Part shown: positions 13,079 to 25,808 of the stretch, in pieces
Position numbering within the stretch: the first letter of the stretch is position 1
How the letters are laid out: every line of letters begins with the position of its first letter
Notes under the pieces: generated by a model
What the model was told of the DNA's origin: nothing
The model's database searches: none
The model's input: the letters and a program-made list of their open reading frames with translations, nothing else
Made by a program: the position numbers and the translations under genes
From: Elusimicrobiota bacterium
GTDB lineage: Bacteria; Elusimicrobiota; Elusimicrobia; UBA1565; UBA9628
Reading direction: 5' to 3'
Assembly (NCBI GenBank): GCA_035606075.1
Contig: DATNGC010000060.1
Span: 1,450 to 65,449 of the forward strand
DNA length: 64,000 bases

Positions 13079-14293
13079 TTAGCCGAGAATCTCGGAGACG
13101 GGCGCATCGGGGATGAGTCGCGTCAGAAACTCTCCGCAAGGCAAGCACGGAATTCCGTCTATGAGCATCCGGTCCTTGCCGCCGTAAAGAAGGCAAGCTT
13201 TCGCCTGGGGGTAGTCTTCGAGAAAGGCCTTCAGAGGGCGCACGTCCTTGGAGTGGACGCGGCGGGAAGACTTCACTTCGATCGCCAGGAACGTATCCTG
13301 CCCATAGACGATGAAATCGACCTCGACTCCGGATTTGGTGCGCCAGAAGGAAAGCTCGCGATCTTTCTGTCCGTAGGCGATCCAGGCGCGCAGCTGCTGA
13401 GCGACCAGGCCTTCCAAAGAGGCGCCTGAAATTTCTTCCGGGGCGTCCAGCGGTCCCCTGGGCCGCAGCGATCGGAATATGCCCGCATCCATGTAATAGA
13501 ACTTCGGATGCTGAACGAGATGTCTTTTCGCTTTCCGCGTGAAGACTTTGAGCCTGAATCCGAGAAGAAGGTCTTCTAATATCTCGACGAATCCTTCCAC
13601 GGCTTTCCGTCCCGCTTGGCATTCCCGCGCCACCTCCGACGTGTTGAGCAGCGAGGCATGGGAAAAGCTCATGGCTTCCAGGAACCGGGCGAAACTCCCG
13701 ATGTTGCGGACCAAGCCTTCTGCCTGAACCTCCTCCCGGAGGTAGAGCGAGACGTAGGACTTGAGCGTCTCCTCCGGTTCCTTGGCCGCCAGCACGAGGG
13801 GAAGTAGCCCCAATCGCAGGCTTTGCTCAAGATTGAAGTGGCTTCCAAGCTCGGCGGCTAGAAACGGGTGCAAGGTTTTGAAAAGCACGCGGCCCGCGAG
13901 GAGATTCACTCCCGTGCGCCGAAGCCTGCGGCTGCTGGAGCCCGTCAGGATGAACTGCACGGGACGGCGGGACTTTCCCTCGATCAACTGGTGAATGACG
14001 TCCAAGAGCGCTGGAATCTTCTGGATCTCATCGATGACGAATTGGGAGATTTTGGGGTTGCCCTCGACCAGGGCGCGCAACTGCTCCGGGTGGCTCACGT
14101 AAGTGCGGTAGGAGTCCGGATCGAGGAGATCCACGAACAGGCCGTGGGGGAATTTCTCCTTCAGCAGGGTGGATTTGCCCGTTCCCCTGGGGCCAAAGAG
14201 GAAAAAGCTGTCGGGGGGTGATTTGAAAAATCGCTTAACAGTATCCATAAACGCTTCCTTTTTGGAGGTAGTGGGGTAATTATATATCGCCAA
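13079..14293 (-). CDS. AAA ATPase with C-terminal DUF4143-type (restriction-endonuclease-like) domain
   Basis: Walker A FLFGPRGTGKSTLL and Walker B QFVIDEIQK. The C-terminal EVDFIVYG..LAIEVKSS is typical of the AAA_14/DUF4143 family. Confidence 0.8.
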   Translation of the reverse strand: MAIYNYPTTSKKEAFMDTVKRFFKSPPDSFFLFGPRGTGKSTLLKEKFPHGLFVDLLDPDSYRTYVSHPEQLRALVEGNPKISQFVIDEIQKIPALLDVIHQLIEGKSRRPVQFILTGSSSRRLRRTGVNLLAGRVLFKTLHPFLAAELGSHFNLEQSLRLGLLPLVLAAKEPEETLKSYVSLYLREEVQAEGLVRNIGSFARFLEAMSFSHASLLNTSEVARECQAGRKAVEGFVEILEDLLLGFRLKVFTRKAKRHLVQHPKFYYMDAGIFRSLRPRGPLDAPEEISGASLEGLVAQQLRAWIAYGQKDRELSFWRTKSGVEVDFIVYGQDTFLAIEVKSSRRVHSKDVRPLKAFLEDYPQAKACLLYGGKDRMLIDGIPCLPCGEFLTRLIPDAPVSEILG

Positions 14294-14326: not shown

Positions 14327-14749
14327 CTAACCCCATGTCGGTAACGCCGCGGCCATGGCTTGGGTCAAGCCAAACTTCTTGCGCCGCAGCTGGACGATGA
14401 TTCCGATGTCGGACGGGAGGTTGACGATAGTCCGGTCTGCGATATCGAGCGGTTGATGCTCACTTTTCATTTTGTTCCCGAGCGGAAGCCAGAGCGCCGC
14501 TTTGCTGATTTCGTAGAGCCTGGTTCTCTCGTTCAGCGGCGAATCTTTCCCGGCGAGTTTCAGTAGCTTGGCCATTATTTCTTCCGTCAAAGCGAGAGAC
14601 TCCAGAACGTCGCCGTCCTTCGTTCCGCGCACGTAATCGGTCTGCAGCAGGAGCGCCCCGCTTCCGATCACGCGCAGAGGGATTTTCTCTGCTTTCGCCG
14701 GAGTCCAAAGACGATCGATCTCGCGGAAGAATCCTTTGACGTCGCTCAT
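14327..14749 (-). CDS. Minimal nucleotidyltransferase-fold protein, C-terminally shorter paralogue of 24392..24985
   Basis: The pol-beta NTase motif hG[GS]x9-13DhD is present as RVIGSGALLLQTDYVRGTKDGDVLE. It aligns with IIGSAALMLQTEYERGTKDSDILE of the 197-aa paralogue. It overlaps the upstream XRE gene by 4 nt. Confidence 0.55.
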   Translation of the reverse strand: MSDVKGFFREIDRLWTPAKAEKIPLRVIGSGALLLQTDYVRGTKDGDVLESLALTEEIMAKLLKLAGKDSPLNERTRLYEISKAALWLPLGNKMKSEHQPLDIADRTIVNLPSDIGIIVQLRRKKFGLTQAMAAALPTWG

Positions 14750-15522
14750 CGTGCGGCCTCAAGGGCGCGGGCGAAATCGTCCACTTGGAATTCCGTGATG
14801 ATGCGCCATCGTTTGGAGATGTCGGAGCGGCTTTTGTGGACCGCGTCGAGGCTTTCCTGGCTGGTGATGCCGCCGTCCAGAAGATCCTCGGGCTCCTTCG
14901 CGTATTTCCGGAGGCTTTCGTGCTTCCAGGCGCTCAACACCGGCTCAAGCAGTATCTCCGCCTGCCTGTAAGCGAGAGTCCACTCGCGAGGAAGCTCTTT
15001 CTTCCGTTCGCGCCGGATGGCTTCCAGGGTATTCTCCAAGACCCAGCCAAGACGCCGTTCGAGCCCAGCTTCCGCCAACTGGGCTCGGAGCTTGTAGAGG
15101 TTGAGATTTCGGATGTTCTTGGCGATCACTGGGGCGATTCCCGTGATCTGCCGCGAGGAACCCGCCCCCACAAGAGTTTCGCGGATGGCGGAGAGGGCAT
15201 CTTTGACGGCGTCGCTCGGCAAAGTCTCCAACTCATAGAGATGGGAGGCTCCCAGGCGGGCTAGGGCGTTCTGCAGTTGATTCCCGTTCGAATCCTTTGT
15301 CTTCTTCTCGGCCGAGAAGTAATCGATCGGCACGTTGAAGTGAGTCAGGACGGCGAGCAATTGCTCGGCGGTAAAGGAGCCCTGGCCGCGCTCGAGTTCG
15401 GAGAGCCGGTTCTGCGATAGCTCGAGAAGTTTCGCCAGCGCCGCTTGCGTCCAGCGCCGTTCTTGACGCAAATGGCGAATCTTCTGGGAGATTGCAACCC
15501 TGTCGTGGTTGATAGTCGTCAT
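14746..15522 (-). CDS. XRE-family HTH protein with a C-terminal domain of about 190 aa and unknown function
   Basis: The N-terminal IRHLRQERRWTQAALAKLLELSQNRLSELERGQ is a Cro/C1-type HTH. By my rough alignment it is about half identical over its full length to 24969..25766. Confidence 0.75.
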   Translation of the reverse strand: MTTINHDRVAISQKIRHLRQERRWTQAALAKLLELSQNRLSELERGQGSFTAEQLLAVLTHFNVPIDYFSAEKKTKDSNGNQLQNALARLGASHLYELETLPSDAVKDALSAIRETLVGAGSSRQITGIAPVIAKNIRNLNLYKLRAQLAEAGLERRLGWVLENTLEAIRRERKKELPREWTLAYRQAEILLEPVLSAWKHESLRKYAKEPEDLLDGGITSQESLDAVHKSRSDISKRWRIITEFQVDDFARALEAAR

Positions 15523-15577: not shown

Positions 15578-15744
15578 CTCGTCAAGGGGTCAATGGAGAT
15601 CAAGGCGGCGCTTCGCGAGCGGATTTCTACCGTTCGAGACAGGCGCCAAATCTAGGACTGGTGAGCCGGCATGCGTTTCGAGCGTAGCACACGCTCCTCT
15701 GGCCTGGCTCGTCCTGATTAGGGACCATATACCATCGGCAGGAC

Positions 15745-16443
15745 ATGACCATGCGCCCCAAGGAGAAGACCATCAGCTGGCGGAAGCGGAGTTCTTGGGT
15801 CGCCGTATTCGATGTCCTGGGCTTTAGCAACATGATGTCCGAGGCGGAGAAGGACTTTCCGCGCGCGCTTCTCACGAGCAAACTGGACGAGCTGATTCAG
15901 TCCCTGGACTCGGAGGAGAAGCGGCATGGGAAACTTGAGCACCTGATGTTCTCGGACACCCTGGTTCTCTTCGGGCCGACGTTCAAGAGCTACGCCTGGT
16001 TTCTTCTTCAGTGCAAGAATCTGATCAAGGACTCGATCAGGCTTCGCCTTCCTTTGCGTGGGGCTATCAGCTACGGAACCACCTTCTCCGCATCGAGGCA
16101 GCGCATGGTGATCGGGCAGCCGTTCCTGGACGCCTACCGCTATTGCGAAGATCAGAACTGGGTCGGGCTTCTCCTGACGCCACTCGCGGTCAAGACCGTG
16201 AGAGACAATGGCTTGGAGCCCCTTCGCCACGACTTTGTAGAAGGGCCCATCCCGCTAAGGGCTCAGCCGTCGGATGGGGCATTGGCCTACCGGTTTCAGA
16301 ACGGCCAGAGTTCCTTCGACAATCCCCTAATCCCTTGGCTCGAGGAGATGCAGCAATTTGCACCGGAGAACGCGAAGGGAAAGTTCACGCTGACCATCGA
16401 CCACATCAGAAGGCACCACCAAGGGCTTATACGGGGAGAGTAG
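15745..16443 (+). CDS. Minimal nucleotide cyclase / palm-domain protein (class III cyclase, GGDEF or mCpol-like)
   Basis: Three motifs in the order expected for the cyclase/polymerase palm fold: VAVFDVLGFSNMM, MFSDTLVLFG and LPLRGAISYGT. It is 232 aa with no other domain. Confidence 0.5.
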   Translation: MTMRPKEKTISWRKRSSWVAVFDVLGFSNMMSEAEKDFPRALLTSKLDELIQSLDSEEKRHGKLEHLMFSDTLVLFGPTFKSYAWFLLQCKNLIKDSIRLRLPLRGAISYGTTFSASRQRMVIGQPFLDAYRYCEDQNWVGLLLTPLAVKTVRDNGLEPLRHDFVEGPIPLRAQPSDGALAYRFQNGQSSFDNPLIPWLEEMQQFAPENAKGKFTLTIDHIRRHHQGLIRGE

Positions 16444-17653
16444 TTCCAGGACAAAGCGTCGGGGATATAGTCGGCTCGCCAGTTCTGACGAGGCGGCCAT
16501 CATCCCCCAGCCTAACCACTTCGAGGTCCGGGAACTCGTTGGTCAGCGGGAAGTCGGCCCAGGGATTCATGTAGAGGGTGAGTCGCGACTGCGGCATACA
16601 CCAGGGCCTGAGCCGGGACGCGATCAGGACACCGCTCACGCGCTTATATCTGGGACCGTCGTTCTGGCGCCAGAGGCCGTCCATTTTCCTAAAGAGCCGA
16701 GATTCCCGGCGACCGTCGGTATAGGTCTTGAACTCGACAGCCTCTTGCCCGTATAGAGCTTGCAGTGCGTCCTCGCTGTCAGTGCTCCCGTCCATTACGT
16801 TCACAGCGATGACGTAGGGCGTATTTAGCTTGCCGTATCGACGGGCCTTTGCGGCTAACATCTTGCGGAGTCTATGGCCCGTGCCGCTCCAGCCGCCGCC
16901 CATCTCCATCCCGATCGCTCGCCCAGGCTCGCCGCGAGCCTTGCCCTTCGGACAGGCAGTAAAATCAATGGCGCAGCCGTCCTGAACCCACTTTGTAACC
17001 GGCCAGTTCCTGAATCCGTTCTCTCCGGCGCTCTCGGCCTTGATCTTGTCGTAGTCTAGGCTGGCGAGCCAGGTCGTCAGGTGCTTTTTGATCGGACCGA
17101 TCGCGATGGCCTTCTTCAGCTCGCCCTGGTAATCAACGTGAAGGAAGAAGTCCTGCGACTTCAGATCGTCGATGGCATCCAATATCGGAGCCATCAGCCG
17201 CTCGTGCACGCTGGTCTCCTCGCTTGAGGTCAGCGTTCGGGCCTCAATAAAAACGCTCTTGCCAGCCGCCTCTATCTGGAAATCTACGCGGCGGTTGGTC
17301 GACCCAGACGAGGGATGGAGTGCGGGAGAATAGCCCATCTTGCGGAGCACCGAGTAGAGGAAGAGCTCGAAGAATGCGCCTGAGTGCGGCTCATCTCCTG
17401 ATCGGAAGCGAGCCCGCAGGTCAGCTTTGCCGGGCTCGGGGAAATCCGCGAACATGGCTTCGACAAGGCCCCGCGTCGCAGTGAAATCCGCGAGGGCGCT
17501 GCGGTTCAGGAAATGGAAGTGGGTTTCCGCTCGGCGCGAGTAATCGGTTTCGGTTCGCACTGCGTCATCAAAGAGTTTCATGCGTATGGGACGGTGGGGC
17601 GGAGGCGGGGGCAGGATAAAATCACCAGTCTGGATCCGAGGTGAGGGTTCCAT
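16427..17653 (-). CDS. Hypothetical protein, weak restriction-endonuclease-like core
   Basis: GAFFELFLYSVL..RRVDFQIEAAGKSVFIEARTL gives an E..D..E-A-R arrangement reminiscent of PD-(D/E)xK. It is the last gene of the RloC-like operon. The start may be ATG at 17581. Confidence 0.45.
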   Translation of the reverse strand: MEPSPRIQTGDFILPPPPPHRPIRMKLFDDAVRTETDYSRRAETHFHFLNRSALADFTATRGLVEAMFADFPEPGKADLRARFRSGDEPHSGAFFELFLYSVLRKMGYSPALHPSSGSTNRRVDFQIEAAGKSVFIEARTLTSSEETSVHERLMAPILDAIDDLKSQDFFLHVDYQGELKKAIAIGPIKKHLTTWLASLDYDKIKAESAGENGFRNWPVTKWVQDGCAIDFTACPKGKARGEPGRAIGMEMGGGWSGTGHRLRKMLAAKARRYGKLNTPYVIAVNVMDGSTDSEDALQALYGQEAVEFKTYTDGRRESRLFRKMDGLWRQNDGPRYKRVSGVLIASRLRPWCMPQSRLTLYMNPWADFPLTNEFPDLEVVRLGDDGRLVRTGEPTISPTLCPGTTLPV

Positions 17654-19966: not shown

Positions 19967-22327
19967 CTAGTGCCGGACAAAGGCCAGCGCCCGGTTTACA
20001 AAGCCAACCAGCTCGCCATCATTGATGGCCTGGGTTTGCCATGCAGGGTTCGTATCGTGGTGGAATCGATTGGCATACTCGACAAGGTCCCGAAGCTCGT
20101 CAATATTGGCTTGGTCGAGAATCTGCTGGGCCCCGCCCACGCGCTGATCGCAGAGGCCACGGAATGGCCCAAGCAACGTCCCCGGCGGGAAATGTTCTGG
20201 GCACGCCACCCGCAAGTAGCCTTCGAGGACCGGGCGGATGCTTTCAGCGACCTCTCGGCTGTTCACGCCACCGCCAGCGACGTGCTGGCGTAGAAGTGAA
20301 TGGCGCCGATCATATTCGGTGATGCAGTCCTGGTTGATATCCCAAGGTCGAATAGTCGAGCCCACCGCATCGCGTGCGACTTCGAGGGAAACTCGTTGGG
20401 CCGCGTCCGTGTGCTCCCAGACGCGACACAGAAAGGGTTTGCTGTGTGAGAGAACAATGACCTGCGCGGTTCGCCCGATGAGGCGCCGCACCTCTTGCGC
20501 AGTCGTCAGGGCTCTATGTTCGTCCAGGCTGGTCATCGGATCATCAATCACAATGATCTTTCCAGCGAGATTAGCGTCCTGGTCCAGGGACGCGAAGAAG
20601 AAAGCTAGGGCGAGAGAGTTCCGGTCGCCAGAGCTAAGGGTATTACGGAATGCATGAGCGCCCGCGACCGGCGCGCCACCAGCAACCGCAACCGGAGCGG
20701 CATTGATCACGATGTTATACGTGCAAGCAGGGCCTGAGCGCGTATTCACCGAGCCCATGTCGGAAATCCTGAACCCGGCGTTGAATCTGGCGAGGTAGGT
20801 ATTTATCGCAGCGTTATACGCAGGATAAGTCGCTTGCTGATACTGCCCAAGCGCCGTGCGCGCCTGATCGCGGAGTTGTTCAGTGGCGGTCTTTGCCGTC
20901 TTCTCTGTGAGATAATCTGCGCACAGGGGCGCCGTCGCTGCCGAATGGCGAGCCTTTGTAGCCTTGAGGCGGGCTACATCGCTGGCCAGCGCGGCCGGGT
21001 TGCCGGCAGCCGCCTGCTCTTGAACGATGCGGATCGCCGCGTTTATAGTCTGGAACCTGTCGCTGAGCGCCCTGACTGTTTGACGGTGTCCATCATAGGC
21101 CGTGATGGCGGCGTGGGCTTCAGGCGAAAGCGCCAGGGGTTCAAGTGGAGCTGCCTTTTTCGCTTCGAGAGCAGTCCGCACCGCGTCCGTGGCGGCGCGC
21201 CATGCGGCTCCCACCGCTGCCGTATCGATCTCGATTTCGGGCGCATCGGTGAACTGGGACCAGAATTGTCGCTGCTCGACCCAGACGCGGATCGCGCGCT
21301 CGAATTGAGAGGCCGTCTGGCCGCCATGCACTCGGCCGATCTCTAGGAGCATCGCCGCCACATCGTCCTTCAACTGGTGATAAGCTTCTCCGAAATAGAT
21401 GCGGTAATGATCAACGAGAGCTGATCCACGAAGGTCCTGCGCACAATACGGGCAAGTCGGCTGCGCGCCCTCAGCAGGCGGATGCGCGTGGGCGCGATTG
21501 AGGCCGTCGGCGACCCATGCCTCGCCTCCTGCGCCTAGAGTTCCCAAATGAGCCTGGACGGCTGCGGCTGCTTGAGCTTCAACAGCAGGGAGCGCCCGCC
21601 GAAGGAGCGTATCCAGCGCCTGTGGGTCCAAGGCCGGAAGGTCAAGAACCTGGAACAATGCGGTATTTCGGATACGCTCCTGCTGCTGCGCCGCCGTCAG
21701 ATTTCGTTCGGCCGTGAGAATAGCGGCGTCGATATCGGCGTTCGCGGGAAGATCGCAGAAGTCATCAACGGACAACGCGCCGCGCTCCGCGGCAGGAATC
21801 AAAGCCGCCTTGAGTCGAAGAGCGGTGTTGTGGGCCTCGATCTGTGCAACGTGGCCTTGCAGGGTGCGGTTCAACTGCACGCCCTGTGCGCCTAGGATCA
21901 GCTCGTTGAGGTTTTGGCGATGCTCCGAGCCGACTGTGAGACCGGAGTAGACGTTTTGCTCGACAAAAGCGTCGTCAAAAATCGCGACGTTTGTCAGGGA
22001 GCGACTCCAGGCGTTATTCTGGAACACAGCCGGAGCCCCGCCGACACAGTCAATTACGATGTGGGGGGCGTGGGCCGCGCCAAGGCGGCGTCGCTCTGCG
22101 ATGTGGAGGGGATCGCCCGTGCCCAGCGACCTAAGGATCGAAGCCAGGGTGGTCTTGCCGCGACCGTTTTCAGCGTAGACGAGGGTGAGCTTAGCTAGTG
22201 CCGGAGCACCGCCGCCGTTCACCGAGTCGAACTGCCCGGTGTTTCGTAAGAGCTGTATTCGGTTGATCAATCTGGACTCGTCCCTGGACTCGCCTATACT
22301 GCCTAAGACAGACCTTCCCCGACCCAC
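19967..22327 (-). CDS. AAA_13-type ABC/SMC-like ATPase with coiled-coil zinc hook, RloC/PrrC-like
   Basis: Walker A AENGRGKTTLAS, signature-like LSSGDRNSLALAFFFA and Walker B KIIVIDDPMTSLDEH. CPYC sits in the middle of a long Ala/Gln-rich helical insert. The roughly 150-aa C-terminal domain has RHSLLRQH and ANRFHHD. Confidence 0.7.
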   Translation of the reverse strand: MGRGRSVLGSIGESRDESRLINRIQLLRNTGQFDSVNGGGAPALAKLTLVYAENGRGKTTLASILRSLGTGDPLHIAERRRLGAAHAPHIVIDCVGGAPAVFQNNAWSRSLTNVAIFDDAFVEQNVYSGLTVGSEHRQNLNELILGAQGVQLNRTLQGHVAQIEAHNTALRLKAALIPAAERGALSVDDFCDLPANADIDAAILTAERNLTAAQQQERIRNTALFQVLDLPALDPQALDTLLRRALPAVEAQAAAAVQAHLGTLGAGGEAWVADGLNRAHAHPPAEGAQPTCPYCAQDLRGSALVDHYRIYFGEAYHQLKDDVAAMLLEIGRVHGGQTASQFERAIRVWVEQRQFWSQFTDAPEIEIDTAAVGAAWRAATDAVRTALEAKKAAPLEPLALSPEAHAAITAYDGHRQTVRALSDRFQTINAAIRIVQEQAAAGNPAALASDVARLKATKARHSAATAPLCADYLTEKTAKTATEQLRDQARTALGQYQQATYPAYNAAINTYLARFNAGFRISDMGSVNTRSGPACTYNIVINAAPVAVAGGAPVAGAHAFRNTLSSGDRNSLALAFFFASLDQDANLAGKIIVIDDPMTSLDEHRALTTAQEVRRLIGRTAQVIVLSHSKPFLCRVWEHTDAAQRVSLEVARDAVGSTIRPWDINQDCITEYDRRHSLLRQHVAGGGVNSREVAESIRPVLEGYLRVACPEHFPPGTLLGPFRGLCDQRVGGAQQILDQANIDELRDLVEYANRFHHDTNPAWQTQAINDGELVGFVNRALAFVRH

Positions 22328-22613: not shown

Positions 22614-24356
22614 CTATCCGCGGGGAGCCATCATCGCCCGTTTGCTGAGCACGAGCAATTCTCCGTTCTCGACTCGCTCGGCGTCGGATGGCCGAAGGGT
22701 ATAGGAAAATCTTGGCCTGTTGTCTTCGGCCGTCAGAAGGCGAGTGCCAATCAGCTGTTCATCGCAATAGAGATTCAAGAAATAGATTCCTGGCCGTTGG
22801 ATAGCGATAACCATTTCCCCTGTGCCGGGAGTGCTAATGCAACTGGATCGGGTTTCGATGGTTACGGTGTTGACCGTTTGTTCTTCTCGAGAGATCGCGT
22901 CAATCAGGGCAACTCGTAGGCTGTGCTTGCCAGGCAAGGCCCGGATCGAACTCGCGATTGAAAGTCTTAGTAGGAGGGGGAACTTTTTTTGGTATGCGAC
23001 GTTGAACTCATTGATGAACGCGAGGTCGTTCTCGCCATGAACGGCAATTTGACAGATGATGAAGTAGACGAGTAAGACGGGACGCTCTTTCGTCAGGAAC
23101 GCATCGTGGCAAGCAGCATGCTCATCGAGGAATCGTTGGTTCGTGGTTTTGGTGAACTCGGCCCGTGCCCCTGGATCTTCAGGGATTTGTCCTTTGAGTT
23201 CTCCGAAGTAGAGCGCCCGCCGTCCAAGAAGCTGGCCTTCAATCCGAGCCTCGAGAAAGGCGGGTCCAGGCTTCTTCATCGGTAACCTGAGTTTGAAGAT
23301 GAGTTCGACATCTTCCGGGAGAAATTGAGAATTCACCTTTCCCGAGGCGACGATTGTTTCTTCACTGTCTTGAAGAAGTGCCATCTCAAACGATCTCTCT
23401 CCAGTCGCTCCCCAATATGCGACCGAAGTCATGAGCTCCGCCTCGTAGGGGAATTCAGGCGTGCCAAGAATCGTCATCGGTCGAGTGAACTTGAGCATGG
23501 TGGGACGTGTCTCGACTCCTTGAGACGTGAGTAGATAGTTTAGATGCCACTTCGGAGCTTTGGGGGTTTCGAGATCTTTAAAGTCATAGAGGCGTTTTTC
23601 GTGCGGCCCTTCGGAGAGAATCTTAGTAGGCTCGATGAGGGGAGTATCTTTCTTTGCTACCAAGTCACGCTGTGTCCAGCCAGTCTTGCCGAAACCCATG
23701 GATTGAGCTCGTGGTGCAGCAGTTGGATCGAGATCGATGTAACCGTAATCCAGGGGGCTAACTCCCTTCGGCGTGATTAAGAGTATCTGGAACATCCCTC
23801 CGACGGTATCGATTCCATGCTTGCGAAGTTCTGTTTCGAGGCCGGGAATCAGTTCGTCGGCCTTCTCTTTGATCGTCTTGCCGGAAGCCTCGATCGTGGC
23901 GAAGCTTCTGTCGAGGAAAGCCTGTGCCGGCGCGCCGGACCCGATGACGACGTAGCCGTCGATTCTGTTCGCGATGAAATCCGGGGATCGGAAGACCCAG
24001 GCGCCGATGTGTCCCCCGGCTTCACGCCCAGTAAGAATCATGCCGACGCCGCTATCTCGCCGGGTTCTTGACTTGTGGAGTGCGTAATAGTGCTTTGCGA
24101 TGCGCGGGATCTCCGCGGCGACTTTCCGCAGGATTTGAAGTTTTGGGTCTTGATGGAAGCGCTTTCGAAGCTGACGGACGATAGTGTCTATCGCTTCGAC
24201 ATCTCCTGCGTATCCGAGAACCTGGTTTGTTCCGATAGCGACGATCTTCTGGAGGTTGTCTTGGAAGGTCGGGGCCCCGCCTTCGCCCCATGTCGCCCTT
24301 GAATCGGAGATTAGAACCACGCCATCAGCAAATCGGCACGCCGCAACCATGGTCAT
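22614..24356 (-). CDS. Proteasome-beta/HslV-like Ntn-hydrolase domain fused to a C-terminal region of about 380 aa and unknown function
   Basis: The N-terminus M-TMVAACRFADGVVLISDSRATW...NLQKIVAIG...LGYAGDVEAIDTIV matches the Thr1 / DGVVLxxDxRxT / K / GxAGxxAD pattern of proteasome beta and HslV subunits. It starts 36 nt after the NTase stop. Confidence 0.6.
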   Translation of the reverse strand: MTMVAACRFADGVVLISDSRATWGEGGAPTFQDNLQKIVAIGTNQVLGYAGDVEAIDTIVRQLRKRFHQDPKLQILRKVAAEIPRIAKHYYALHKSRTRRDSGVGMILTGREAGGHIGAWVFRSPDFIANRIDGYVVIGSGAPAQAFLDRSFATIEASGKTIKEKADELIPGLETELRKHGIDTVGGMFQILLITPKGVSPLDYGYIDLDPTAAPRAQSMGFGKTGWTQRDLVAKKDTPLIEPTKILSEGPHEKRLYDFKDLETPKAPKWHLNYLLTSQGVETRPTMLKFTRPMTILGTPEFPYEAELMTSVAYWGATGERSFEMALLQDSEETIVASGKVNSQFLPEDVELIFKLRLPMKKPGPAFLEARIEGQLLGRRALYFGELKGQIPEDPGARAEFTKTTNQRFLDEHAACHDAFLTKERPVLLVYFIICQIAVHGENDLAFINEFNVAYQKKFPLLLRLSIASSIRALPGKHSLRVALIDAISREEQTVNTVTIETRSSCISTPGTGEMVIAIQRPGIYFLNLYCDEQLIGTRLLTAEDNRPRFSYTLRPSDAERVENGELLVLSKRAMMAPRG

Positions 24357-24391: not shown

Positions 24392-24985
24392 CTACTCCTG
24401 CATCCAGTCCGGAAGTTCGATAGAGGATTCCTTAACACCGAGATTGTCCCGTTCGACTCGGTTCAGATTCGCGATATACTTCGGAAAGTCTTCCGCGAAT
24501 CCCGAAGTCGAATGGAAATCGATGGCGGCTTTGAATCGTGTGACCAGTTTCTGGTGATCCAGGAGTTGCTTGGAGGCCAGTGCCGCGATGTCTGCCGCGT
24601 CATTTTGGTTGAAGCGTTTAAGCTTACTGACAGCGACGTCAGTCAAATCGAGAACCTCGACCGTGAAATTCTTCAGCGGTAAATCTGGAACAGCCTGGAA
24701 GAGCGGGGCTTGAGGCCAGAATAGAATCGCGCGGGTCACGACCTCAATATACATCCGATATTTCACGAACAGCGGAGCTTTGGGGCCGGCGAGGGCAAGC
24801 AATTGTTCTCGGATGGCCGGCGTGATCTCGGCGGCCTCAAGGATGTCGCTATCCTTGGTTCCTCGTTCATACTCGGTTTGCAACATGAGCGCGGCTGAGC
24901 CGATGATTCTCAAGCGGATAGGCTCGCTGCCAACAGGTTTCCACTTCTCGTCGATTTCGGTGAGAAATCTATGGATGAGTTTCAC
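24392..24985 (-). CDS. Minimal nucleotidyltransferase-fold protein (197 aa)
   Basis: RIIGSAALMLQTEYERGTKDSDILE fits the pol-beta NTase motif. It overlaps the XRE gene by 17 nt. Confidence 0.6.
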   Translation of the reverse strand: MKLIHRFLTEIDEKWKPVGSEPIRLRIIGSAALMLQTEYERGTKDSDILEAAEITPAIREQLLALAGPKAPLFVKYRMYIEVVTRAILFWPQAPLFQAVPDLPLKNFTVEVLDLTDVAVSKLKRFNQNDAADIAALASKQLLDHQKLVTRFKAAIDFHSTSGFAEDFPKYIANLNRVERDNLGVKESSIELPDWMQE

Positions 24986-25766
24986 GGGCTGCCCTCAACG
25001 CTTGTATAAAGTCATCTGTCTGAATTCGCGTCGTGATTCCCCAGCGTTTCGAGATCTCGGAACTCTCGCGGCGGGCCTCGGCGAGGGATTTGTCGCTGGC
25101 AATGTCATGGTCCAGCACGTCGCTGAAATCTACGAGCGAAGCCCTGAGCGCACGAACCCTCCGGCCTGGCCAGTCGAGAGAAAGAAACGACTTCAGGATT
25201 ACTTCCGCCCGATGGTACTTGAGTTTCCATGCATGCGGCAGAGGCTGCGAGAGCTCGTGATGGATGGCCTCAAGAGTGTTTTCCAGCGCCCACCCCAAAC
25301 GTTGCCCTAAGCCGATCTCGAGGAACTGTGCTTGGAGGGTTTTTAAGTTGATTCGGTTGATGTTGTCGACGAGTACGGGCGCGAGCGCCGCGATTTGCCG
25401 CGACGATTCTGCGGAGATCAGCGCTTCACGCACGGCATCAGTGACTTCTTTGAAAAGCACAGAGGGTATGGTGTCAGCCGGTTCGAATAGATGCGACGCG
25501 CCGAATCGCGCGAGGGCGCTTTGGATTTGGTCTTGCCCTTCCGTTTTCGCGGGGGAAAAGTAGTCGATCGGCACGTTGAAGGTCTTGAGAATCGTCAGCA
25601 GGTGATCTGCTGTGAACGACCCCTGACCGCGCTCCAGTTCGGAGAGATAGTTCTGTGAGATGCCGAGCAATTCGGCGAGCTGTTTCTGGGTCCAGCGGCG
25701 GTCTAGGCGCAGAGTGCGGATGCGCTCGCCGATGGAGTGATGTCGCCGGGTCTGTTTGATAGTCAT
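24969..25766 (-). CDS. XRE-family HTH protein, paralogue of 14746..15522
   Basis: The HTH is IRTLRLDRRWTQKQLAELLGISQNYLSELERGQGSFTADHLL. It shares C-terminal blocks (RLGWALENTLEAI, ISKRWGI) with the island C copy. Confidence 0.75.
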   Translation of the reverse strand: MTIKQTRRHHSIGERIRTLRLDRRWTQKQLAELLGISQNYLSELERGQGSFTADHLLTILKTFNVPIDYFSPAKTEGQDQIQSALARFGASHLFEPADTIPSVLFKEVTDAVREALISAESSRQIAALAPVLVDNINRINLKTLQAQFLEIGLGQRLGWALENTLEAIHHELSQPLPHAWKLKYHRAEVILKSFLSLDWPGRRVRALRASLVDFSDVLDHDIASDKSLAEARRESSEISKRWGITTRIQTDDFIQALRAARETHP

Positions 25767-25808
25767 ATCGGTATGGCGATTAATATATCGCTATAGCGAT
25801 ATTATTGC
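25767..25808. promoter_or_regulatory. Operator/promoter region with overlapping GCGAT/ATCGC inverted repeats
   Basis: The sequence is atcggtatggcgattaatatatcgctatagcgatattattgc. The inverted repeats are gcgat-taatat-atcgc and atcgct-at-agcgat. The leader tcatatcggt is shared with 15519-15528. Confidence 0.4.

What the first reader, a model, noticed from the sequence alone, without database searches (positions are those of the whole stretch)
15745..16443. Stand-alone minimal cyclase/polymerase palm-domain gene convergent on the HEPN operon
The 232-aa protein shows VAVFDVLGFSNMM, MFSDTLVLFG and LPLRGAISYGT in order. These are the metal-binding beta-strand, the GGDEF/GGDD-position loop and the following strand of class III cyclases, GGDEF domains and the minimal CRISPR-polymerase (mCpol) group. 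Such minimal palm enzymes are known to act as nucleotide-signal generators partnered with HEPN or CARF effectors. Here the gene's 3' end overlaps the last gene of the operon containing the two HEPN genes by 17 nt (16427-16443). It is also divergent from the XRE gene. No obvious sensor (CARF/SAVED-like) domain is visible nearby, so any signalling link would be unconventional.
Basis: partly seen in the sequence, partly recalled or inferred. Interest (0 to 1): 0.65.

Follow-up and report, generated by a model that had tools for sequence, protein, structure and literature searches.

The report
Solitary cyclase-fold toxin-like gene
The gene is real and encodes a protein with the fold and metal-binding residues of adenylyl/guanylyl cyclases, but it belongs to a large unnamed family of stand-alone genes related to a proven prophage toxin, and it is not wired to the neighbouring HEPN operon.

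Summary
The ORF at 15745-16443 (+) is a real gene under strong conservation. There are 141 close homologues and 1,205 cluster representatives, and none matches a Pfam, NCBIfam or PADLOC model. The AlphaFold model (pLDDT 92) matches class III nucleotidyl-cyclase catalytic domains (Foldseek E about 1e-7).

It is not an mCpol: it has no GGDD motif, is 232 aa, and gives no Cas10-type match among the 50 best listed. The cyclase Asn/Arg transition-state pair is absent.

The proposed HEPN link fails. Across 70 non-redundant family loci, no HEPN, ATPase, CARF, SAVED or cNMP-binding neighbour recurs.

The only recurrent neighbour is the convergent 384-aa gene. It forms a 1.9-kb two-gene cassette with the palm gene, found in six different contexts but only within one shallow clade. 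That partner is a distant PD-T7-5-like, nuclease-type defence gene, not an intrinsic member of the HEPN operon.

The only experimentally studied relative is PanT of Burkholderia prophage phi52237 (hhalign 98%, E 3e-13). PanT is a "nucleotide cyclase" toxin neutralised by PanA, and no PanA is present here. Distant relatives sit between structural genes of P2-like prophages.

Best reading: a solitary, PanA-less, cyclase-fold toxin or effector enzyme.

The parts
15745..16443 (+). Palm gene: 232-aa protein (probably 230 aa from the ATG at 15751). It has a class III cyclase-like palm domain (aa ~13-145; D23, D71, R105) and a family-specific conserved C-terminal domain (aa ~146-226; L199, K213, Y214 in the family; the window's protein has F214).
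   Evidence: ORF; homologues; conservation; AF2 pLDDT 92; Foldseek against PDB and BFVD; homology to PanT of phi52237.
15677..15744 (+). Conserved leader or promoter-proximal stretch of the cassette (core TTAGGGACCATATACC about 20-35 nt before the start). It marks the left edge of the DNA block shared with relatives.
   Evidence: blastn block boundaries at 15677-15716; alignment of seven relatives. No consensus sigma-70 site was found on the + strand, so the promoter function is inferred only.
16427..17581 (-). Convergent partner gene: 384-aa protein (the ORF is open to 17653, 408 aa). It is a distant PD-T7-5 / PD-T7-1-like protein with a PD-(D/E)xK-type N-terminal core (E72, D100, E113 in 384-aa numbering). 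Its 3' end overlaps the palm gene by 17 nt.
   Evidence: Alignments; rare family of 23 proteins; PADLOC PD-T7-5 hits in 19 of 21 members, best E 1e-10; AF2 pLDDT 84; only weak fold matches, among which PD-(D/E)xK nucleases are the commonest class; shared cassette.
16427..16443 (.). 17-nt overlap of the two convergent stop-proximal ends. It leaves no room for a terminator between the genes. It is conserved (17, 17, 17 and 14 nt) in four relatives; in a fifth the two genes lie 42 nt apart.

Best explanation
The gene encodes a stand-alone enzyme of a large, unnamed protein family. The family has the class III adenylyl/guanylyl-cyclase fold with a remodelled active site.

Shown: it keeps the two-metal/triphosphate site (D23 on strand 1, D71 in the beta2-beta3 hairpin, R105 on the next strand). 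It lacks the cyclase Asn/Arg transition-state pair and the purine-specifying Lys. It carries a conserved C-terminal domain with a near-invariant Lys-Tyr.

Inferred: it binds an NTP with two Mg2+, probably as a homodimer like other enzymes of this fold, and catalyses a nucleotidyl-transfer or cyclisation reaction. Its only studied homologue is PanT of Burkholderia prophage phi52237, which arrests growth by shutting down transcription and then translation. By that analogy the product or the reaction is growth-inhibitory, and the protein acts as a self-contained toxin or effector, most plausibly in abortive-infection-type phage defence. No PanA or other conserved antitoxin is present, so control must be intrinsic or come from expression level or a trigger. 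This step is unknown.

The gene is not a signal generator for the adjacent HEPN/ABC-ATPase operon. In this clade it is physically welded, by a 17-nt 3' overlap, to a PD-T7-5-like nuclease-type defence gene. The pair moves as a 1.9-kb cassette, most likely as two independent single-gene modules.
For: Fold:
- AF2 model pLDDT 92.3, pTM 0.88.
- The 50 best PDB matches listed are all class III cyclase domains: E 8e-8 to 1e-5, probability 1.00, TM 0.48-0.57 by query and up to 0.70 by target. BFVD also gives cyclase-domain proteins.
- hhalign to a cyclase mini-alignment is colinear over about 150 residues. It pairs D23, D71 and R105 with the cyclase metal Asp, the IGD Asp and the RxGxHxG Arg, but only weakly (E 2e-3).

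Conservation:
- D23, G26, D71, R105, G106, G111, G124, Q137, W139, G141, K213 and Y214 are each at least 91% conserved in 74 members at 19-53% identity.

Family size and solitude:
- 1,205 representatives at E <= 1e-3, the best 150 listed being at most 326 aa.
- Among the genes within 3 kb of 70 non-redundant family loci, only the 384-aa gene (6 clusters) recurs in more than 3 clusters. No Pfam family occurs in more than 3 of the 115 immediate neighbours.

Toxin homology:
- Family profile against phi52237 gp8 (YP_293707.1 = PanT): hhalign probability 98%, E 2.7e-13; hmmsearch 3.3e-18.
- PanT is a validated toxin neutralised by PanA. It inhibits transcription more than translation (PMC8832971).

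Accessory or defence context:
- The gene sits in a low-GC stretch (55-63% GC over about 12-34 kb) flanked by 65-75% GC sequence, next to PDC-S01, PDC-S06 and XRE-NTase modules.
- Immediate neighbours elsewhere include GajA, dCTPase, AbiU, PDC-S11, a DUF4238 protein (PADLOC DUF4238-Pers) and AIPR.
- Distant members lie in P2-like prophages, between the baseplate gene V and the tail-completion gene S, or just after the portal gene Q.

Independence from the HEPN operon.
Against: - No biochemical or phenotypic data exist for this subfamily.
- Homology to PanT covers only the palm domain; the C-terminal halves differ.
- A toxin without any antitoxin is unexplained.
- The family's C-terminal domain is conserved, not variable. 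This gives no support to a CapRel-style fused variable sensor/antitoxin.
- Many family loci lie next to ordinary metabolic genes, and the defence association was not tested statistically.
- About a third of loci have a tightly coupled but non-homologous small neighbour by my crude ORF calls. Many members could therefore be two-gene TA toxins rather than truly solitary.
- The cassette with the 384-aa gene recurs in six contexts, which could mean functional coupling.
Confidence: 0.55

Rival explanations
1. The palm gene and the convergent 384-aa PD-T7-5-like gene form one functional two-gene system. Either the palm enzyme makes a nucleotide signal that controls the nuclease-like protein, or the two act as a toxin/immunity pair regulated by their overlapping convergent transcripts.
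For: - The block 15677-17584 (about 80% nt identity) is shared with L001, L030, L031, L032 and L033. It ends within about 70 nt upstream of the palm start codon and within about 45 nt of the partner's start codon, while both flanks differ in every case.
- The 14-17-nt 3' overlap is conserved in 5 of the 6 cassettes.
- Both proteins have diverged to a similar extent: 82-88% and 79-85% identity.
- A 70%-identical relative of the 384-aa gene is translationally coupled to the end of a CD-NTase/Cap15 (CBASS-like) operon. The family is therefore seen next to nucleotide-signalling genes elsewhere.
Against: - Each gene occurs without the other. L008 (88% identical palm) has a different downstream gene. 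L034-L039 (30-70% identical 384-aa relatives) have no palm gene.
- The pairing is confined to one shallow clade: 6 of 70 non-redundant palm clusters.
- By established knowledge (not re-read here), PD-T7-5 was isolated as a single-gene defence (Vassallo et al. 2022).
- The 384-aa model shows no CARF, SAVED, cNMP or other recognisable ligand-sensing fold.
- A 3' overlap by itself keeps two genes together passively.
Confidence: 0.2
2. One reading: the palm enzyme generates a nucleotide second messenger that acts on the HEPN RNases of the adjacent AAA_13/HEPN operon.
For: Physical adjacency in this window. The operon does contain a Ymh-type HEPN protein (PF09509, E 4e-15). Cyclase-fold genes have been noted next to HEPN genes in other windows of this scan (unchecked notes).
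Against: - No relative of the Ymh-HEPN/FG-GAP, 359-aa or AAA_13 proteins occurs in any of about 125 other loci holding a family member or a relative of the partner gene.
- The five closest cassettes sit beside DUF5677 with a reverse transcriptase, DUF5677 with DUF3800, a PLD protein, an unannotated 491-aa gene, or no co-directional gene at all.
- The orientation is convergent.
- No ligand-sensing domain was detected in the operon proteins.
Confidence: 0.04
3. It is an ordinary regulatory cyclase, or a catalytically dead palm protein, with a cellular role unrelated to conflict. For example it could make cAMP/cGMP for receptors encoded elsewhere.
For: Cyclase fold. Many family loci lie among metabolic genes. 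No effector is nearby.
Against: - No PF00211 match, even for 74 diverse members.
- The Asn/Arg pair and the specificity Lys are absent.
- There is no sensory or regulatory domain of the kind usual in bacterial class III cyclases.
- The phyletic distribution is patchy.
- The gene lies in a low-GC island and relatives lie in prophages.
- It is homologous to a toxin.
- The metal ligands are near-invariant, which argues against a dead enzyme.
Confidence: 0.12

Closest known systems
PanT(Bur. phage), gp8 / YP_293707.1 of Burkholderia prophage phi52237: the 'nucleotide cyclase' toxin of a PanA-PanT type II toxin-antitoxin pair (Kurata et al. 2022, PMC8832971)
   Same: Homologous palm domain: hhalign probability 98%, E 2.7e-13 over 138 columns; hmmsearch 3e-18. 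It shares the same motifs, (V/I)DILGF, FSD, RGxIxxG and FGPAF(V/L)DAY. Both proteins have no Pfam match. The PanT gene sits just beyond the portal gene Q, separated from it by a small TA pair (gp6/gp7), in a P2-like prophage, the region where a distant relative sits in L044.
   Different: PanT is 314 aa with an N-terminal extension and an unrelated C-terminal half. It is encoded next to, and neutralised by, a DUF4065 (PanA) antitoxin. No PanA homologue exists in the window or in any of about 125 loci examined. The window's subfamily has its own conserved C-terminal domain (L199, K213, Y214).
Class III adenylyl/guanylyl cyclase catalytic domains (CHD, Pfam PF00211), e.g. PDB 5O5L, 3UVJ, 7YZ9 (Rv1625c), 1YBT (Rv1900c)
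   Same: Same fold and strand/helix order. The two metal-binding Asp and the phosphate-binding Arg sit at the equivalent positions.
   Different: No sequence-profile match to PF00211. There is no conserved Asn/Arg on helix 4 and no specificity Lys before the second Asp. The protein has an extra conserved C-terminal domain and no sensory domain. The product is unknown.
Pycsar / Pucsar cyclases (PycC, PucC) with cNMP-binding TM or TIR effectors
   Same: A cyclase-fold enzyme encoded in defence islands.
   Different: No PADLOC PycC hit. No adjacent effector with a cNMP-binding, TIR or comparable domain in the window or among 115 neighbours.
mCpol (OptS) of Panoptes, PDB 9NWN (PMC12657230)
   Same: A small stand-alone palm enzyme with no CRISPR context, encoded in defence islands.
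   Different: mCpol is a Cas10-type palm of about 125 aa with a GGDD active site, paired with a 2TM-beta or CARF-TM effector. Here the hairpin is FSDT, the protein is 232 aa, the best listed fold matches are class III cyclases, and no such effector is adjacent.
PD-T7-5 (and PD-T7-1), E. coli anti-phage defence genes (Vassallo et al. 2022; PADLOC models PDLC04110, PDLC04073). This is the closest known relative of the convergent partner gene, not of the palm gene.
   Same: 19 of 21 members of the 384-aa family hit the PD-T7-5 model (best E 1e-10) over the N-terminal nuclease-like core.
   Different: The window's own protein hits only weakly (E 2e-3). The C-terminal two-thirds have no recognised fold. 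In this clade the gene is welded tail-to-tail to the palm gene.

Membership tests
Class III nucleotidyl cyclase (CHD, PF00211) | Cyclase-homology-domain fold (beta-alpha-alpha-beta-beta-alpha-beta palm core with the CHD order of elements) | tested here: met
   AF2 pLDDT 92. The 50 best PDB matches listed are all CHDs, E down to 8e-8, TM up to 0.70 by target.
Class III nucleotidyl cyclase (CHD, PF00211) | Two metal-binding Asp (strand 1 and the beta2-beta3 hairpin) and the phosphate-binding Arg | tested here: met
   D23 99%, D71 100%, R105 95% of 74 members. They pair with the CHD residues in a colinear but weak hhalign.
Class III nucleotidyl cyclase (CHD, PF00211) | Transition-state Asn and Arg on helix 4, and the base-specifying Lys/Asp (or Glu/Cys) pair | tested here: not met
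   Helix 4 reads G-x-x-F-L-[ED]-A-x-x-Y-C-E-D-Q, with no conserved Asn or Arg in any register. The position four residues before D71 is Leu or variable.
Class III nucleotidyl cyclase (CHD, PF00211) | Match to the Pfam model above the gathering score | tested here: not met
   No hit for the protein or for any of 74 diverse members. The PDB profile searches also found no cyclase.
Class III nucleotidyl cyclase (CHD, PF00211) | Synthesis of a 3',5'-cyclic NMP from an NTP | not testable with these tools
   Needs an enzyme assay with LC-MS.
mCpol / Panoptes OptS | [quoted passage not shown] | tested here: not met
   The hairpin is M-F-S-D-T (family consensus F-S-D-T). The definition comes from PMC12657230.
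mCpol / Panoptes OptS | Adjacent 2TM-beta or CARF-TM effector | tested here: not met
   None in the window. No such Pfam family appears in the 25-family summary returned for the 115 neighbours.
Pycsar (PycC + effector) | Cyclase gene adjacent to an effector with a cNMP-binding domain fused to TM or TIR | tested here: not met
   No PADLOC Pycsar hit. No cNMP_binding or TIR neighbour.
GGDEF diguanylate cyclase | GG(D/E)EF motif and a PF00990 match | tested here: not met
   FSDT at that position; no Pfam hit.
PanT(Bur. phage)-type cyclase-fold toxin | Sequence homology to YP_293707.1 | tested here: met
   hhalign probability 98%, E 2.7e-13; hmmsearch E 3.3e-18. Palm domain only.
PanT(Bur. phage)-type cyclase-fold toxin | Cognate PanA (DUF4065) antitoxin gene adjacent | tested here: not met
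   jackhmmer with gp9 against the six-frame translation of the window and all loci found no hit. No DUF4065 among the neighbours scanned or in the 25-family summary for the 115 neighbours.
PanT(Bur. phage)-type cyclase-fold toxin | Growth inhibition on expression, relieved by the partner | not testable with these tools
   Needs an expression test in a laboratory strain.
PD-T7-5-like defence nuclease (partner gene 16427-17581) | Match to the PADLOC PD-T7-5 profile | tested here: inconclusive
   The window's protein scores E 2.4e-3. At family level, 19 of 21 members hit, best E 1e-10. The fold search gives only weak matches, with PD-(D/E)xK nucleases the commonest class.

The most novel reading that the evidence does not exclude
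The roughly 230-aa PanA-less family would be a new kind of single-protein abortive-infection enzyme. It has at least 1,205 clusters at 50% identity, spans many phyla and is invisible to Pfam, NCBIfam and PADLOC. In this reading a cyclase-fold palm with a remodelled active site, completed by its own conserved Lys-Tyr C-terminal domain, makes a non-canonical toxic nucleotide or nucleotidylates a target once a phage cue releases it. In the window's clade it would also be coupled to a PD-T7-5-like nuclease through an obligate tail-to-tail overlap, so that convergent transcription or a direct protein contact makes the two a single switch.
Probability: 0.2. Interest if true: 0.75.

Novelty: new variant of a known kind. 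Interest (0 to 1): 0.5.

Why it matters
Nucleotide-making palm enzymes are central to bacterial immunity (Cas10, CD-NTases, PycC, mCpol). Each newly characterised branch has so far revealed new signalling chemistry. This branch is large, widespread and completely unannotated. It keeps the catalytic metal site but not the cyclase-specific residues.

Its only studied relative is a toxin whose product and target are still unknown. Working out what the enzyme makes, and how a toxin-like enzyme is tolerated without an antitoxin, would fill a real gap. It would also give annotation pipelines a model for more than a thousand protein clusters.

For this window specifically, the result removes an attractive but wrong 'cyclase to HEPN' wiring. 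It also shows that the last gene of the 'HEPN operon' is a separately mobile PD-T7-5-like module.

Tried and rejected
- Pfam, NCBIfam and PADLOC on the palm protein gave no hits. PHROGs gave only an unknown-function family, phrog_23933.
- PDB sequence and profile searches found nothing significant. The weak LtrA reverse-transcriptase hit, which aligns the YADD hairpin with FSDT, only reflects the generic palm.
A1 was used instead.
- hhalign to a cyclase consensus or mini-alignment gave only a weak but colinear alignment. It was used for residue mapping, not as proof of homology.
- I looked for a conserved neighbour with blastp and phmmer clustering of 299, then 604, neighbour proteins. None recurred beyond the clade-specific 384-aa gene and an M1E1E6-like partner in a distant subfamily.
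- A simple Rx4H motif scan for HEPN neighbours was too unspecific and was discarded in favour of the Pfam scan.
- The idea of a variable C-terminal sensor domain, CapRel-like, was rejected. The family HMM aligns end to end in 119 representatives, with a median of 5 unaligned C-terminal residues.
- The co-phylogeny test of the two cassette genes was uninformative, because divergence is star-like (r = 0.10).
- The fold search of the 384-aa model gave no significant match.
- tblastn of the L042 relative against named phage genomes gave no match.
- No RNA runs hold the locus; the three holders are soil-metagenome runs provisionally labelled DNA. Expression could therefore not be examined.
The geometry of the active site and the dimer interface could not be inspected.
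Full report
**1. The observation**

The ORF 15745..16443 (+) encodes 232 aa and contains VAVFDVLGFSNMM, MFSDTLVLFG and LPLRGAISYGT in that order. The database copy of this protein is 230 aa, and the second ATG (15751) is the one shared by six of the seven aligned relatives. The real start is therefore probably 15751.

The gene lies in a low-GC stretch (55-63% GC, about 12-34 kb) flanked by 65-75% GC sequence. Its 3' end overlaps the minus-strand ORF 16427..17653 by 17 nt. It is divergent from the XRE gene 14746..15522, with a 222-nt spacer.

It is a real gene under strong selection:
- 141 word-indexed homologues, the best 120 listed all at E <= 3e-52 and 44-88% identity.
- 1,205 representatives of 50%-identity clusters at E <= 1e-3, the best 150 listed being at most 326 aa.
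- Hosts in Elusimicrobiota, Nitrospirota, Acidobacteriota, delta-proteobacterial lineages, Spirochaetota, Planctomycetota and Binatia.

**2. What the protein is**

Pfam, NCBIfam and PADLOC give nothing. PHROGs gives only an unknown-function family. PDB sequence and profile searches find no relative.

The AlphaFold2 model built on 43 homologues is confident: pLDDT 92.3, pTM 0.88. Its order of elements is that of a cyclase homology domain (strand 13-24, helices 27-52, hairpin 65-77, helix 80-99, hairpin 104-123, helix 125-136, strand 141-144). About 80 further residues of helices and short strands follow.

Foldseek against the PDB returns only class III adenylyl/guanylyl cyclase catalytic domains among the 50 best listed (5O5L, 3UVJ, 7YZ9, 3ET6, 1YBT and others). 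E-values run from 8e-8 to 1e-5, probability is 1.00, and TM reaches 0.70 normalised by target. BFVD likewise returns viral proteins with guanylate-cyclase domains.

Conservation in 74 members sharing only 19-53% identity singles out these residues:
- D23 (99%), L25, G26 and F27 on strand 1
- S70 and D71 (100%) in the hairpin
- P103, R105 (95%), G106 and G111 on the next hairpin
- G124, Q137, W139 and G141
- L199, K213 (97%) and Y214 (93%) in the C-terminal helices

A colinear, though weak, profile alignment to a cyclase mini-alignment pairs three of these with cyclase residues (E 2e-3). D23 pairs with the first metal Asp (FADIvGFT). D71 pairs with the Asp of IGD. R105 pairs with the Arg of lRiGiHtG.

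What is missing is equally clear. Helix 4 (G-x-x-F-L-[ED]-A-x-x-Y-C-E-D-Q) has no conserved Asn or Arg in any register. There is no Lys four residues before D71. The protein is thus a cyclase-fold enzyme that keeps the two-metal/triphosphate site but has lost the residues that define canonical cyclase chemistry and base choice. It has gained a conserved C-terminal domain. That domain is not a variable appendage: the family HMM aligns end to end in 119 representatives.

**3. It is not an mCpol, GGDEF or PycC**

mCpol is defined by a Cas10-type palm of about 125 aa with a di-glycine di-aspartate site and an adjacent 2TM-beta or CARF-TM effector (PMC12657230). Here the hairpin is FSDT and the protein is 232 aa. 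The PDB library should include the mCpol structure 9NWN, yet it gives only class III cyclases among the matches listed. No such effector is nearby. There is no GG(D/E)EF motif, no PADLOC Pycsar hit and no neighbour with a cNMP-binding or TIR domain.

**4. Neighbourhood: the HEPN link fails**

I collected 110 family members in loci from genomes, metagenomes, viral contigs and plasmids. They fall into 70 clusters at 90% identity.
- Clustering all 604 proteins within 3 kb gives only one neighbour family present in more than three clusters: the 384/408-aa convergent gene, in six clusters, all from the window's own clade.
- A Pfam scan of the 115 immediate neighbours finds no family in more than 3 members, and no HEPN, CARF, SAVED, cNMP-binding, TIR or DUF4065 family in the 25-family summary returned.
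- Relatives of the window's Ymh-HEPN/FG-GAP protein, the 359-aa protein and the AAA_13 ATPase occur in none of the other loci.

**5. The real local partner: a 1.9-kb tail-to-tail cassette**

Five relatives at 83-88% protein identity (L001, L030, L031, L032, L033) carry the same convergent neighbour (78-84% identical). The overlap is 17, 17, 14 and 17 nt in four of them. In L032 the two genes lie 42 nt apart.

blastn shows one shared block, window 15677/15716 to 17536/17584, at about 80% nucleotide identity. It ends within about 70 nt upstream of the palm start codon and within about 45 nt of M25 of the partner, and both flanks are unrelated in every case. Upstream of the partner lie:
- the HEPN/ABC-ATPase genes in the window
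- DUF5677 plus a reverse transcriptase in L001
- nothing co-directional in L030
- DUF5677 plus DUF3800 in L031
- a PLD protein in L032
- an unannotated 491-aa gene (clustering with the DUF5677 proteins) in L033

The partner is therefore not an intrinsic member of the HEPN operon. Its likely start (17581) leaves a gap of about 40 nt to the HEPN gene instead of the 32-nt overlap implied by the longest ORF.

The pair is nevertheless separable. L008 (88% identical palm) has a different downstream gene, with homology ending at 16421. Relatives of the partner at 70% identity (L034-L036) and at 30-36% (L037-L039) have no palm gene. In L036 the partner's relative is appended, with an 11-nt overlap, to a CD-NTase/Cap15 operon.

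The partner family is rare, with 23 proteins, and has no Pfam match. 19 of 21 members hit the PADLOC model of PD-T7-5 (best E 1e-10) and 11 hit PD-T7-1. By established knowledge (not re-read here), PD-T7-5 is a single-gene defence system from Vassallo et al. 2022. The partner's model (pLDDT 84) has no significant PDB match. PD-(D/E)xK nucleases (Cas4, Hjc, EcoRV, HincII, the R2 endonuclease) are the commonest class in the weak list, and these fit the conserved E72...D100...E113 pattern.

I read the cassette as two single-gene modules kept together by their overlap. I keep a functional pair as the main rival (0.2).

**6. The closest studied relative**

A note from earlier work in this scan pointed to PanT of Burkholderia prophage phi52237. 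I tested this directly. The family profile against gp8 (YP_293707.1), fetched from the phage record, gives hhalign probability 98% and E 2.7e-13 over 138 columns, and hmmsearch gives E 3.3e-18. The aligned motifs are VAFIDILGF, FSDF, SRGGIAMG and FGPAFVDAY.

Kurata et al. (PMC8832971) reported the following for this protein:
- It is toxic in E. coli.
- It is bound and neutralised by the DUF4065 antitoxin PanA.
- It inhibits transcription most, then translation.
- It triggers RelA-dependent ppGpp accumulation without depleting ATP.
- HHpred predicts a cyclase fold.
- Its product is unknown.

No PanA homologue exists in the six-frame translation of the window or of any locus.

Distant family members also lie inside P2-like prophages, as judged by the family HMM (E < 1e-5) and, for L042, by hhalign (98.7%). 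In L042, L043 and L045 they sit alone between the baseplate gene V and the tail-completion gene S. In L044 the gene follows the portal gene Q. The PanT-PanA pair lies in the same general region of phi52237, just beyond Q and a small TA pair. Such positions are known hotspots for defence cargo in P2-like phages; this is established knowledge and was not tested here.

**7. Mechanism proposed**

Shown:
- the cyclase fold
- the conserved two-metal/triphosphate site
- the conserved C-terminal Lys-Tyr domain
- homology to a validated toxin
- solitary genomic behaviour
- accessory or defence-type contexts

Inferred:
- NTP binding
- dimerisation as in other enzymes of this fold
- a nucleotidyl-transfer or cyclisation reaction whose product or consumption arrests growth, as for PanT
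- a role as a self-contained effector in abortive infection

Unknown: the product, the trigger, and how the cell tolerates the gene without an antitoxin. By my crude ORF calls, about a third of loci have a tightly coupled but non-homologous small neighbour. This recalls the partner-swapping seen in toxin-antitoxin networks and should be examined properly.

**8. Verdict**

The gene is a PanA-less, solitary variant of the PanT-type cyclase-fold toxin kind, in a large family that has no annotation model. Several other windows of this scan have met relatives, so the family, not this instance, is the interesting object.

- Interest: 0.5.
- Confidence in the best explanation: 0.55.
- Boldest reading (a new single-protein immune enzyme class, coupled here to a PD-T7-5-like nuclease): probability 0.2.

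Noticed in passing
window 16427-17653 (-) and L036:4387-7191: The '408-aa last gene of the HEPN operon' is a PD-T7-5/PD-T7-1-like protein of a rare family (23 proteins). It appears as the terminal gene of quite different defence operons. In L036 it overlaps the end of a Cap15-receptor gene in a CD-NTase (CBASS-like) operon that also carries a TIR protein.
   Followed up: partly
L027:5296-6639, L028:5313-6624, L040/L041:5096-6459: In a distant subfamily (Bacillus plasmids and IMG/VR contigs) the palm gene is immediately preceded by a 217-235-aa protein with a C-terminal M1E1E6-like 'integron cassette protein' domain (PF21648). The spacing runs from overlapping to a 3-nt gap. This may be a conserved two-gene module, possibly toxin-antitoxin-like.
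   Followed up: partly
L014:1307-3302: Two family members lie in tandem, separated by a 130-aa protein that looks multi-pass membrane-spanning by eye. L060 (130 aa) and L022 (151 aa) also have a small gene directly downstream of the palm gene.
   Followed up: no
L042:6010-6852, L043, L045, L044:6010-6846: Distant family members (278-295 aa) are lone cargo genes in P2-like prophages. They sit between the baseplate gene V and the tail-completion gene S, or after the portal gene. None of these has a match in named phage genomes.
   Followed up: partly
window 14327-15522 and 24395-25790: The XRE-HTH (258 aa) plus DUF6036-like nucleotidyltransferase pair is duplicated in the window: XRE E 1e-72 and NTase E 8e-20 to the second copy. 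Neither pair is linked to the palm family elsewhere.
   Followed up: partly
window 19967-22327 (-) and 13079-14293 (-): The AAA_13 ATPase matches the PADLOC candidate system PDC-S06 (E 1e-58), with weaker PrrC/LmuB-type hits. The AAA_14/DUF4143 ATPase matches PDC-S01 (E 4e-54). The island is a stack of candidate defence modules.
   Followed up: no
window 22614-24356 (-): A 580-aa protein has an N-terminal proteasome-subunit-like domain (PF00227, E 1e-8) and a C-terminal DUF6941 domain. No partner is nearby.
   Followed up: no
L008:6689-7426: In the Elusimicrobiota relative that lacks the PD-T7-5-like gene, the palm gene is followed by a co-directional 245-aa gene of unknown family, with an 8-nt overlap. 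A 125-aa XRE-type HTH gene lies 53 nt upstream; this same HTH protein recurs in L001 and L033.
   Followed up: no
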